Assembly: GCA_965649205.1 (NCBI GenBank)
Contig: CBFGJV010000005.1
Span: 41,918-105,917, forward strand
Source: a candidate division WOR-3 bacterium
GTDB lineage: Bacteria; Hydrothermota; Tepidihabitantia; Tepidihabitantales; Tepidihabitantaceae
Length of the DNA stretch: 64,000 nucleotides
Direction: 5' to 3'
Under the pieces are notes generated by a model that was not told where the DNA came from, searched no databases, and worked only from the letters and a program-made list of their open reading frames with translations. Of this stretch, positions 60,114-63,524 are shown piece after piece; the stretch's first letter is position 1, and every line of letters begins with the position of its first letter. The position numbers and the translations under genes are program-made.

Positions 60114-60704
60114 CTATTGCACCTTCACTGACCTAGCTGCGTGCCTGTGACCCGGTCCACAATCTACGACTACCACATATCCGCCCGCGGGAAGCGAGCT
60201 TAGCAATGGTCCTTCCAGCCGCAACTGCGAGCCGGCAGAGAACTCCTGACTGAGACGGAGTCTGCCGTGCAAATCATACAGCCTTACGTTGATTGGCTGC
60301 CCGGCGTATCCCTGGCTGAAACTCACCACCAGGCTGCTGCGGAAGATGGGCGGGACCACCGGAATCCGCGGCTGGTCCTCGCGATTCCCGTTGATTCCCG
60401 CCACTGGTTCTTCCAGGCGGCCGGAGCCGTCCAGCATACCCGGGCTGCCCGGCAGGTCAACGCGCGGAGGCACTATAGGTACGGGCAAGGGAAGCTCCGG
60501 CAAGCTTGGAAGCACGGGCAGAATCAGACGTTCCTCGCTTGCCTCATCTACCAGCAGAGGCTGGCCAATCCGGACAGGCGGAACCATCGGTGGTACCAGG
60601 TCCAGGTACATAGGCGGTTGCGGCTGCCTGTACTCCGGATTGATTTCAGCCAGAGCCGGAGTCAGTAGTAGAAGTAAGGTAAATAGACCGATTAGCTTTT
60701 TCAT
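60114..60704 (-). CDS. Small secreted Pro-rich protein with T9SS-like C-terminal domain
   Basis: SD AGGAGG; MKKLIGLFTLLLL signal; Pro-rich body; LYDLHGR...LPAGGYVV...VKV tail. Confidence 0.7.
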   Translation of the reverse strand: MKKLIGLFTLLLLLTPALAEINPEYRQPQPPMYLDLVPPMVPPVRIGQPLLVDEASEERLILPVLPSLPELPLPVPIVPPRVDLPGSPGMLDGSGRLEEPVAGINGNREDQPRIPVVPPIFRSSLVVSFSQGYAGQPINVRLYDLHGRLRLSQEFSAGSQLRLEGPLLSSLPAGGYVVVVDCGPGHRHAARSVKVQ

Positions 60705-60763
60705 AGCTACCTCCTGTTTTTTACTGCTGGCAGAACCAGCAGGACTCTTCCCATTATTAATGA

Positions 60764-60856
60764 CTATGCGGTGCCGGCGAGAGATTCTATTCTCTGCGCC
60801 GGGCCCGGAACTACTCCGGGCCGTCTTGTATAGTGCGTCGTTACTGTACCGCATAG
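60764..60856 (+). ncRNA. Candidate three-stem junction structured RNA or ssDNA element
   Basis: P1 60764-60774/60846-60856 (11 bp, one G.U on the + strand); P2 60775-60801 (10 bp, 1 bulge); P3 60802-60822 (8 bp). Confidence 0.5.
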
Positions 60857-61297
60857 CACTGCTTAGACACAAACCGAAGCGCAAGGATTCAGCAGTCTGT
60901 AAGACCGCGCCAGCATCCAAAAAGGAAAAGCTTTTCAGCCTGCTTTGTCCGACGCTCAGATGCGGCCGGAACATACGGATTTACAGCCGGATACACAACT
61001 GCCCGCCGCACTGGAGACAAAAGCGGGGTAGAACGGCGTAGGTAATACTTTTTCAATCAGTTATCAGCTTAGTCCCTGGTATTACCGCCCCCGAATTTGT
61101 TGCCAGCTTCTTCTGGGTGCTGTTTAGGTGCAACCTATGGGAAAACCAAGACTTGGCGCTTTTATTGCCCCTTGCTCGGCCGCAGCCCCCTAGGCGGCGT
61201 GGGCGCTGGGGACTCCCCGGCAAAACCGTCTTCTGGATAAAAACGGCCGCTTGTGTCCATATAACCTGATGAGAAGAGAGACCTAAAGGAGGAAATT

Positions 61298-61672
61298 ATG
61301 GATAACTTCTCAAGACGGATAACAATGAACCGGGGCACTATCCGCGTGCTGGAAGAGAATACGTAAAGGCGCTGAAAATCCGCTGCTGGGAAAAGCGCAG
61401 CCGCAGGCGGAAAAACTGTTCGGAAAGAGGTTTTGTCCCTGCTGGAAACCGCGGGAATGAGCAGATTTGAGACTATGCACTACGGCTGGTTTCTGCGCGA
61501 ACTTTCCCGGCTGTGGTGCAACTATGCGGGCCGGGACCTTGCCTTTCATCTGGAGCTGTGTATGCGCAAATGGCTGGGATACGGACTGAAAAGCGAAATA
61601 ATCCAGTTTCTGGTAGTGGAAATACACCTGCGGCTCAAAGCTAGAAGCGAAAACGGCAAGAAGGCGGAATGA
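61298..61672 (+). pseudogene. Disrupted small helical protein resembling the Adnaviria (SIRV2-type) major capsid protein, copy 1
   Basis: SD AAGGAGG plus ATG 61298 in frame with ORF 61433-61672, but in-frame TAA (61364) and TGA (61373). C-terminal part VLSLLETAGMSRFETMHYGWFLRELSRL...KWLGYGL. Confidence 0.55.
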
Positions 61673-61675
61673 CAG

Positions 61676-62147
61676 ATGGACCCAACAGAAAACAGACAGA
61701 TAGAGCGGGCCGTAAGTCGCCACCATCGGGCGTTGGCCAGAGGCACTGCTCCCTGCCGCGCGGACGGCGACGCGCAGGCAGACAACTTCCGGGCCGCACT
61801 GGAGCGGGCAGAACTGCGTGCGGCGCAGATGAAAGCAGTCCTGCACGCCGCGCAGGTGCTGATGGGCCAAACCCTGCTCTGGCGCAACTTCATTTTGCAT
61901 CTGGACCGGCTGGCACGCACCTGTGGAGGCGTCACGGCATCGGTGCTGGTGCGAGCAGGCCCTTCGCGGGCTGGCACGCACCTGTGGAGGCGTCACCCTG
62001 CGGTTGCGCGCAAAGGAGGCGGTACAGCGTTGGGCGGCCTTGGGTCTGGACGCAGAACTGCTCCTTCGCCTTGCCGCAGAAGTATTCGGCCTGGACGCAT
62101 TGACAGAAAAGGGTGGGAAAATAGAATGCCACAATGGGGTTGAATAG
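61676..62147 (+). pseudogene. Paralog (copy 2), frameshifted by a 61-bp insertion
   Basis: Removing one repeat plus the insert joins ORF 61676 to ORF 61923-62147, giving a 136-aa protein paralogous to copy 1. Confidence 0.7.
61908..61996. repeat. Exact 28-bp direct repeat flanking a 33-bp insert (neo-CRISPR-like unit)
   Basis: GGCTGGCACGCACCTGTGGAGGCGTCAC at 61908-61935 and 61969-61996; insert GGCATCGGTGCTGGTGCGAGCAGGCCCTTCGCG. Confidence 0.92.
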
Positions 62148-63225
62148 GCTCGCAGTAATCTGGGCGCTGCTTGTGTCCCTGAGTTGGGGCTTCTGGGACT
62201 TCTGGCCCTATTTGCAACATCAGGACCTGCTTTCCCGTTCCATAGATATCTGTGGTGAGCGATATCCGGAAATGCTTACCGAACTCAGGGTTTATCGCGA
62301 TCGTCTGCTCGCCGGGGTCCACGACGAAGACTATGACCAGGACGAAGTCAACGGCTCCTACTCCGACTATTCAGGCTACTGCGCGGTGCTTCCGGCTGCC
62401 TGGTGGCCCACGGCGCGGCGACGGCTCAACGCTATCCAGTGGGTTTATGACCCGCAGAATCCCAACAACTGGAATGCGGCTCTGGTCACCTATCCTTCCG
62501 ATCCGGCCCGGGCTTACTATATGCTTGGCCACATCATTCACAACTTGCAGGACTTGTTTGTGCCGGCGCACGCGCACATTGCGCCCCATGGCGCAGGCAC
62601 AGGTGGTCTGGTGGAAAATCACTCCTGGCCACTCTACTTTGATAACTTTGAGCAATACTGCGAAACAGGCGCCAACGAACTTGGCCGGGCCCGGGCAGAG
62701 CGCATTCCGCAGGCTCCGTTGGAAACACTAATGGTGTGGGCGGCGCGCTTTGCTGCCACAGACGTGGAATCGGTGGGATTCAGACCGTCTTTATACTATG
62801 CTCGGCCGGACAGTGCGGGCGGCTGGGGTCGGTACCGACCCTATCCTTCCGGCGGCTATCCCTGCGGTCGGGACCGTATCACCAATGCGCTGGCCGACTC
62901 CTGGTCGCTCTGGCTCGCGCCTACCTGCTGTGAATACGGAGCTGCGGCCATACGCAACTTCTGGCGGGCAAGCGTAGGCCGCAAGGAAGGTCAAATGGTT
63001 CGGTCTGAGACGCTGTTCCTGCCGACTTCGCCTATACGGCCCGGCTCTTTACTGCTGGAGGTGGCGCAACCGGTGCGGGTGCAGTTCTTTACTCCTTCCG
63101 GCTGGCTGGAGGCAGAAGCCACAGGCACCCGTATTTACTGTCCCTTATTGCCTGGGGGGCGGTGGTTTGTGCGCGTAGCGGACAGAACTGGCGCGACAGT
63201 ATTTCCGCTGACGGTTATTCCTTAG
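62134..63225 (+). CDS. Secreted zinc-dependent phospholipase C / P1 nuclease-fold protein with degenerate T9SS-like tail
   Basis: Signal peptide, then W...H near the mature N-terminus; G.HDED; LGHIIHNLQDLFVPAH; D.FE. Promoter TTGACA-16-TAGAAT 6 nt before the ATG. Confidence 0.7.
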   Translation: MGLNRLAVIWALLVSLSWGFWDFWPYLQHQDLLSRSIDICGERYPEMLTELRVYRDRLLAGVHDEDYDQDEVNGSYSDYSGYCAVLPAAWWPTARRRLNAIQWVYDPQNPNNWNAALVTYPSDPARAYYMLGHIIHNLQDLFVPAHAHIAPHGAGTGGLVENHSWPLYFDNFEQYCETGANELGRARAERIPQAPLETLMVWAARFAATDVESVGFRPSLYYARPDSAGGWGRYRPYPSGGYPCGRDRITNALADSWSLWLAPTCCEYGAAAIRNFWRASVGRKEGQMVRSETLFLPTSPIRPGSLLLEVAQPVRVQFFTPSGWLEAEATGTRIYCPLLPGGRWFVRVADRTGATVFPLTVIP

Positions 63226-63524
63226 AGCTGGCTTGCCTGCCAGCGCGGGTCGGCCATGGCTGCGTCCAGCTCAGAGCCGGCACGCAGGGCAGTGCGGTGC
63301 TGCCGGTCGTAGTCCGCACCGGCATATCTGCAGAGAAGCTGGATGGGAATGTCATCGGCTCGGCGCAGGCTTCCACTACCGTTGGGCCGCAGGGCGAATA
63401 GAAGCATGAGTAAACTCGACGCTCGATTCAGACAGAATGAACCGGAAAGGAAGCCTGCTATCGGGTATTCCCAGAAAGCTTTTCATAGAAGCGTTCCCAT
63501 TATCCCCCGCCAGCGCTCGCGCAC

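What the first reader, a model, noticed from the sequence alone, without database searches (positions are those of the whole stretch)
61908..61996. 28-bp target duplication plus 33-bp insert: footprint of off-target Cas1-Cas2 spacer integration that knocked out a gene
Seen: an exact 28-bp direct repeat (flanking bases differ on both sides) encloses 33 unrelated bp starting with G. The repeat is ordinary coding sequence (RLARTCGGVT), and deleting the 61-bp unit restores the frame. Established: type I-E Cas1-Cas2 inserts 33-bp spacers, whose first G derives from the AAG PAM, and duplicates a 28-bp repeat, giving 61-bp units. Off-target 'neo-CRISPR' integrations have been shown experimentally in E. 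coli. Inference: a natural, fixed off-target acquisition acting as an insertional mutagen, here in a virus-like gene. No cas genes are in the window.
Basis: partly seen in the sequence, partly recalled or inferred. Interest (0 to 1): 0.85.

Follow-up and report, generated by a model that had tools for sequence, protein, structure and literature searches.

The report
Misplaced CRISPR spacer inside a gene
The enzyme that writes this bacterium's CRISPR memories most likely pasted a spacer into an ordinary gene instead of the CRISPR array, and did so a second time elsewhere, giving a clean natural example of an error known mainly from laboratory experiments.

Summary
Confirmed: an exact 28-bp repeat encloses 33 unrelated bases and frameshifts a small gene. 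Contigs of a close relative in 3 of 4 runs lack exactly this 61-bp unit, so it is a derived insertion with target duplication. The genome has a type I-E locus whose array uses the same 28+33 geometry (34 of 36 spacers); its three other arrays do not. Genome-wide, only two such repeats lie outside arrays, and both are 28/33. Best reading: off-target integration by the resident I-E Cas1-Cas2 (about 0.88). Caveats: no protospacer or PAM was found, the leading G is weak evidence, and source reads were unavailable. The cassette shows other signs of decay (the upstream gene is frameshifted), so the scar may not have been the inactivating hit. Both scars lie in or beside genes of a chromosomal family related to archaeal filamentous-virus coat proteins (0.45% of the genome), as does the I-E locus. 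A second I-E-bearing relative showed no scars in 2.19 Mb, so targeting is unproven. The phenomenon is published for E. coli, and this scan has noted such scars, and this gene family, in other genomes.

The parts
61908..61935 (+). Target copy 1 (28 bp), originally single-copy coding sequence; positions 16-22 (GTGGAGG) resemble the G-tract of the resident I-E repeat
   Evidence: (one copy in the relative)
61936..61968 (+). 33-bp insert, the putative spacer; starts with G on the + strand; source not found
61969..61996 (+). Target copy 2 (28 bp), identical to copy 1
61676..62147 (+). Interrupted gene of the rudivirus-coat-protein-like family (136 aa without the unit). With the unit it reads normally to residue 87, shifts frame and stops at 62143, losing the C-terminal helices. 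It also lacks two 6-bp in-frame stretches present in the relative
   Evidence: (table 4)
61298..61672 (+). Upstream gene of the same family, itself broken: two single-base indels near 61358 and 61420 give a stop after 22 codons
   Evidence: (table 4)

Best explanation
The resident type I-E Cas1-Cas2 integrase carried out a full-site integration at a non-CRISPR site. It joined the two ends of a 33-bp prespacer to opposite strands 28 bp apart inside this gene, and gap filling duplicated the 28 bp, leaving a repeat-spacer-repeat unit that shifts the frame. The same enzyme did this at least once more (G000 C21:34970-35058). SHOWN: geometry, derived state at this site, a resident I-E system with the same geometry, a second unit, and partial likeness of this target to the native repeat. 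INFERRED: that this enzyme did it; that specificity is loose because the system is a recent arrival with only 18 bp between cas2 and the first repeat, in a host with one DNABII gene and no clear IHF pair; that the scars survive because they fell in redundant, decaying loci (about 0.6 for this last step).
For: (1) Of exact repeats of 24 bp or more at periods 45-100 outside the four arrays in 2.15 Mb, 2 of 2 are exactly 28/33 (wider scan). (2) The I-E array on C43 has 37 repeats; 34 of 36 spacers are 33 bp and 35 of 36 start with G. The other arrays have periods 76-83, 72-75 and 70-71. (3) cas1e, cas2e, cas5e and cas6e pass NCBIfam cut-offs; cas8e is at the end of C12. (4) Contigs of a relative about 88-90% identical skip exactly 61 bp here, with 28 letters fitting both sides, in 3 of 4 runs from one study. 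(5) The I-E cas2 family was found in only 2 of 44 genomes of the family, and the same-genus genome G001 has other cargo in that slot. (6) The target matches the native repeat at 13/28 forward (top 1.3% of genomic 28-mers) and 15/28 reversed (top 0.25%, best of both strands). It has 6 of 7 bases of the G-tract at positions 16-22 in the G-first orientation (top 0.14%), where Goren 2016 places the ruler anchor (PMC5039180). (7) No local template: the longest shared word within 1 kb is 8 nt, reached by 89% of random controls.
Against: No protospacer was found for either insert, so no PAM. The second target is not repeat-like overall (10/28 and 9/28; 27% of the genome scores as well), and its best sub-motif (5/7, 1.4%) is one of 20 post-hoc comparisons. 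Neither target forms the native inverted repeat that Goren 2016 found essential, and leader-end likeness is better in the orientation opposite to G-first. Source reads were not available, and the empty allele of the second site was not found. G057, with a 77% identical Cas1, showed no 61-bp scar in 2.19 of about 3.7 Mb.
Confidence: 0.88

Rival explanations
1. Directed variant of the same chemistry: Cas1-Cas2 is drawn to loci of the coat-protein-like family, for example because these DNA-wrapping-fold proteins coat or bend their own loci and stand in for IHF. This is compatible with the best explanation and differs only in why these sites were hit.
For: Both scars are in, or 42 bp upstream of, genes of this family, which with 200-bp flanks cover 0.45% of the genome. 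The I-E locus lies between such genes: one 1.5 kb before cas3, three starting 10 bp behind the last repeat. The fold matches Adnaviria coat proteins.
Against: Only two events, and the association was seen post hoc. Against DNA outside long ORFs (205 kb) the family loci are about 5% by my estimate, so survival in dispensable DNA explains much of it. The window cassette has independent lesions. No scar was found in 125 loci (441 kb) from relatives, including 30 family loci of I-E-bearing G057, nor in 2.19 Mb of G057.
Confidence: 0.08
2. A non-CRISPR process (break repair with a captured fragment, template switching, or slippage) made the duplication and the insert, and the match to I-E geometry is chance.
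For: No PAM or protospacer evidence; the second target is not repeat-like.
Against: Such processes have no fixed size (established knowledge), yet both units are exactly 28/33, and 0 of 23 comparable repeats in G057 have period 61. There is no local or genomic template: the longest genomic match is 13 nt.
Confidence: 0.05
3. Another integrase made it: one of the genome's other Cas1 proteins, a casposase, or a 33-bp miniature mobile element.
For: Four further cas1 loci exist. Both inserts carry GCATC near their G-first end.
Against: The other arrays have periods of 70-83 bp. The two inserts are no more alike than GC-matched random pairs (15% score as well), and they show no terminal inverted repeats by inspection.
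Confidence: 0.04
4. Assembly artefact.
For: No run holding the filled allele was found. The second site lies in a stretch collapsed between two near-identical paralogous loci.
Against: The 33 bases occur nowhere else in the assembly, and two unrelated units share one geometry. The window site is single-copy DNA collinear with the relative's contig.
Confidence: 0.03

Closest known systems
Non-canonical (off-target) spacer integration and 'neo-CRISPR' units by E. coli type I-E Cas1-Cas2 (Nivala, Shipman and Church 2018; not held, seen only through passages in bioRxiv 10.1101/148544 and PMC7054753)
   Same: Same subtype, same 28+33 unit outside the array, and a target partly resembling the repeat.
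   Different: Natural expression in an uncultured bacterium rather than overproduction; an empty allele is seen in a relative; both scars lie at one gene family. The cited passage calls the natural evidence in two other species circumstantial.
Canonical type I-E adaptation with two rulers in the repeat (Goren 2016, PMC5039180, parts 1-2 of 4 read; review PMC10011333, passages)
   Same: 28-bp duplication, 33-bp spacer, G next to the first repeat copy, G-tract at positions 16-20 partly present.
   Different: No leader, no inverted repeat, a single unit, and no evidence of crRNA processing.
HU-controlled fidelity of Cas1-Cas2 in Thermotoga profunda type III-A (PMC13769266, passages)
   Same: Shows that without an architectural protein Cas1-Cas2 integrates off target; this host has one DNABII gene.
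   Different: Different CRISPR type and in vitro; nothing was tested for this host.
Rudivirus/Adnaviria major capsid protein (PDB 6WQ0, 3J9X, 3FBZ, 5W7G; Pfam PF12193)
   Same: The family profile matches 6WQ0 at E 3.3e-6 and 3J9X at 1e-3; the top 8 fold matches are these coat proteins.
   Different: Multi-copy chromosomal family (2-80 matches per genome, 44 of 44 genomes); not found in IMG/VR by two scans; below the Pfam cut-off.

Membership tests
Off-target type I-E Cas1-Cas2 integration product | Exact 28-bp duplication around a 33-bp insert | tested here: met
Off-target type I-E Cas1-Cas2 integration product | Target single-copy before the event (empty allele) | tested here: met
   3 of 4 runs, one study; window site only
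Off-target type I-E Cas1-Cas2 integration product | Type I-E cas1 and cas2 and an array of the same geometry in the genome | tested here: met
Off-target type I-E Cas1-Cas2 integration product | Target resembles the native repeat | tested here: inconclusive
   window site top 0.25%; second site not enriched
Off-target type I-E Cas1-Cas2 integration product | Insert is a protospacer with a PAM whose last base is the first G | tested here: inconclusive
   no source found; G-first has 59% chance
Off-target type I-E Cas1-Cas2 integration product | Reads span the unit; the enzyme reproduces the event | not testable with these tools
   no run with the filled allele
Functional type I-E CRISPR mini-array | Palindromic repeat that forms the Cas6e hairpin | tested here: not met
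   folding z-scores +0.74 and +0.54
Functional type I-E CRISPR mini-array | Leader upstream and further expansion | tested here: not met
   1 of 6 leader-end bases in the G-first orientation; one unit only
Adnaviria-type major capsid protein fold (interrupted gene's family) | Sequence and fold similarity to rudivirus/lipothrixvirus coat proteins | tested here: met
   (model made from the C21 paralog, Foldseek E 0.02 at best)
Integrated Adnaviria provirus | Coat gene inside a viral gene set or on viral contigs | tested here: not met
   neighbours look like host genes; no relative in IMG/VR; present in 44 of 44 genomes

The most novel reading that the evidence does not exclude
A bacterial family of archaeal-virus coat-protein homologs binds its own loci and acts as the DNA-shaping host factor that draws a newly acquired type I-E Cas1-Cas2 there, in place of IHF. 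That would explain why both off-target spacers and the I-E locus itself sit at these genes.
Probability: 0.08. Interest if true: 0.85.

Novelty: new member of a known kind. Interest (0 to 1): 0.48.

Why it matters
Off-target spacer integration is shown in E. coli overproducing Cas1-Cas2, and a paper I could read calls the natural evidence circumstantial. Here the geometry picks out one of four resident CRISPR systems, the empty allele is seen, and a second event exists. That gives two natural target sites for testing what an IHF-poor type I-E integrase recognises, and shows adaptation acting as a low-rate insertional mutagen. It also shows a trap: such scars may mark genes that were already dying, not genes they killed. 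If the link to the coat-protein-like family is real, it would give that family a first function.

Tried and rejected
Protospacer searches found nothing. The window insert had no exact match in IMG/VR, JGI metagenomes or GTDB genomes and no real match in 132 genomes of the class. The C21 insert had no exact match in IMG/VR and was not searched in the two larger collections. Phage records gave only chance hits (E about 4). Native spacers gave no match longer than 22 nt in the genome or held loci. The leading G as evidence was rejected as weak. Kinship of the two inserts was rejected. A hairpin in the target was not found. An empty allele for the C21 site was not found in 41 genomes or in metagenomes. 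General targeting of the gene family was not supported in G057 or other relatives; about 40% of G057 was not scanned. A provirus reading was rejected. The four runs held only 5-10% of the stretch's words and are a relative, not the source sample; no habitat is inferred. Cas7 was not found, most likely because of the C12/C43 assembly gap. The Nivala paper and its supplements could not be read; its target motif may bear on the motif comparison.

Full report
OBSERVATION. The unit is as described: 28 identical bases at window 61908-61935 and 61969-61996 around 33 others, with differing flanks on both sides. Twenty block-shuffles of the window gave at most 14 bp. The repeat lies in an ORF starting at 61676. 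Without one 61-bp unit it encodes 136 aa, and both halves align contiguously to single intact ORFs in relatives (9 of 41 genomes have a match). With the unit, the frame is normal to residue 87, shifts, and loses the region holding the family's nearly invariant Trp and Gly.

DERIVED STATE. Four public runs held a small share of the region. Laid at 85% likeness, contigs in 3 of the 4 skip exactly 61 bp at 61907 to 61969, with 28 letters fitting either side; one 6.8-kb contig is collinear from 60500 to 63266. The ancestor therefore had one copy of the 28-mer, and the event happened in this lineage. These contigs are a relative about 88-90% identical, from one study; none carries the filled allele, so reads across the unit remain untested.

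THE ENZYME. The genome (2.15 Mb, 48 contigs, 98% complete) has five cas1 loci. Contig C43 carries cas5e, cas6e, cas1e and cas2e, all above NCBIfam cut-offs, followed by 37 repeats; 34 of 36 spacers are 33 bp and 35 of 36 start with G. cas8e and a cas3-like ORF (by inspection) end contig C12; cas7 was not found, probably because it falls in the gap. The other three arrays have periods 76-83, 72-75 and 70-71. In E. coli the 33-bp protospacer's first G comes from the AAG PAM (PMC10011333, passages), and a 28-bp repeat is duplicated under two rulers (PMC5039180, parts 1-2 of 4).

A SECOND SCAR. Among exact repeats of 24 bp or more at periods 45-100 outside the four arrays, there are two in the whole genome, and both are 28/33: this one and C21:34970-35058. 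In 2.19 Mb of relative G057 the same scan listed 23 repeats, mostly low-complexity or tandem, none at period 61. Two independent units matching the one resident array of that geometry is the strongest evidence.

WEAKER EVIDENCE. The window target resembles the native repeat: 13/28 forward and 15/28 reversed, the latter in the top 0.25% of genomic 28-mers. It has 6 of 7 G-tract bases at positions 16-22 in the G-first orientation. The C21 target is not enriched overall. The motif tests were 20 post-hoc comparisons. Neither target has the native inverted repeat. The leading G carries little weight, since 59% of GC-rich 33-mers start with G on one strand. No protospacer was found, so the PAM is untested. 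Local template switching is not supported.

WHY FIDELITY MAY BE LOW (inference). The I-E cas2 family was found in 2 of 44 genomes of the family, and in the same-genus genome G001 the same flanking genes enclose other cargo, so the system looks recently acquired. Only 18 bp separate cas2 from the first repeat. The host has one DNABII gene, below the curated cut-offs for both IHF and HU. In Thermotoga, loss of such a factor raises off-target integration in vitro (PMC13769266, passages).

THE GENE. The interrupted gene belongs to a family with 17 matches in this genome and 2-80 in each of 44 of 44 family genomes. Its profile matches rudivirus coat proteins (6WQ0, E 3.3e-6), and a confident model of the C21 paralog (pLDDT 93.7) has Adnaviria coat proteins as its top 8 fold matches, none below E 0.001. 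It was not found on viral contigs, so it is virus-like in fold but chromosomal. The lineage is probably candidate phylum WOR-3; that name is my recall and comes from no call. One search for it with 'major capsid protein' and 'filamentous' returned 0 papers, and a second returned a listing with no title on bacterial homologs (listing only).

WAS IT A KNOCK-OUT? The relative's contig shows that the upstream gene of the same family (ATG 61298) differs by two single-base indels, near 61358 and 61420. In the window it stops after 22 codons, with the middle part in another frame matching homologs. The scarred gene also lacks two 6-bp in-frame stretches present in the relative and in homologs. The cassette was therefore decaying, and the spacer may have landed in a gene that no longer mattered. 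The order of events is unknown.

THE ODD COINCIDENCE. The second scar ends 42 bp upstream of another gene of this family, and the I-E locus lies between family genes. These loci are 0.45% of the genome with 200-bp flanks, or about 5% of the DNA outside long ORFs by my estimate. Survival in redundant loci is the simpler account. G057, with a 77% identical Cas1 and 80 family matches, showed no scar in 30 family loci or in about 60% of its genome. A directed mechanism is not excluded but rests on two events.

WHAT IS KNOWN. Nivala, Shipman and Church 2018 showed off-target integration in E. coli and offered circumstantial natural cases in two species. I could not read it and rely on passages in 10.1101/148544 and PMC7054753. 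Five searches (listings only) showed no survey of natural scars, but the library lacks most subscription papers. This scan's notes list 93 findings in at least 58 genomes with such words and several on the coat-protein-like family; these are unchecked leads, not support.

VERDICT. A real, derived 28/33 insertion, most likely an off-target product of the resident type I-E Cas1-Cas2 (0.88). It is not a functional mini-array. It is a new, well-controlled member of a known kind; interest 0.48.

Noticed in passing
G000:C21:34970-35058 (L008 5971-6059): Second orphan 28/33 unit, 42 bp upstream of an intact coat-protein-like gene. A near-identical second copy of this locus is split between the starts of C27 and C2, with the middle collapsed, so which copy has the scar is unknown.
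   Followed up: partly
window 61298-61672: Upstream coat-protein-like gene broken by two single-base indels; the relative's contig has the other allele at both places.
   Followed up: yes
L052 5211-10971 and L007 1-6215 (ends of C12 and C43): The type I-E locus sits between a coat-protein-like gene plus a sigma-factor-like ORF (by inspection) and three coat-protein-like genes. In G001 (C56) the same flanks enclose other cargo, separated by three extra copies of the 3' end of the coat-protein-like gene, which hints at a cassette-insertion hotspot.
   Followed up: partly
L007 2890-2926 and L094: Very short I-E leader (18 bp after the cas2 stop), with a motif shared between G000 and G057 that overlaps the end of cas2.
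   Followed up: no
window 61182-61227: GC-rich element of about 45 bp with copies on C24, C3, C11 and C30 and in the relative's other contigs.
   Followed up: no
G000 C3:2-688 and C42:5396-6157: Two open frames that each hold two coat-protein-like domains in tandem.
   Followed up: no
G000 C1:30382-30560, C22:1-330, C20:1571-2600, C31 end: Three further CRISPR arrays of other geometries and a cas1 cut by a contig end.
   Followed up: partly
L007 4638-4760: Two consecutive identical spacers in the I-E array.
   Followed up: no
window 62134-63225: 363-aa ORF with no Pfam match whose start overlaps the end of the interrupted gene; conserved at 69-73% DNA identity in four relatives.
   Followed up: no
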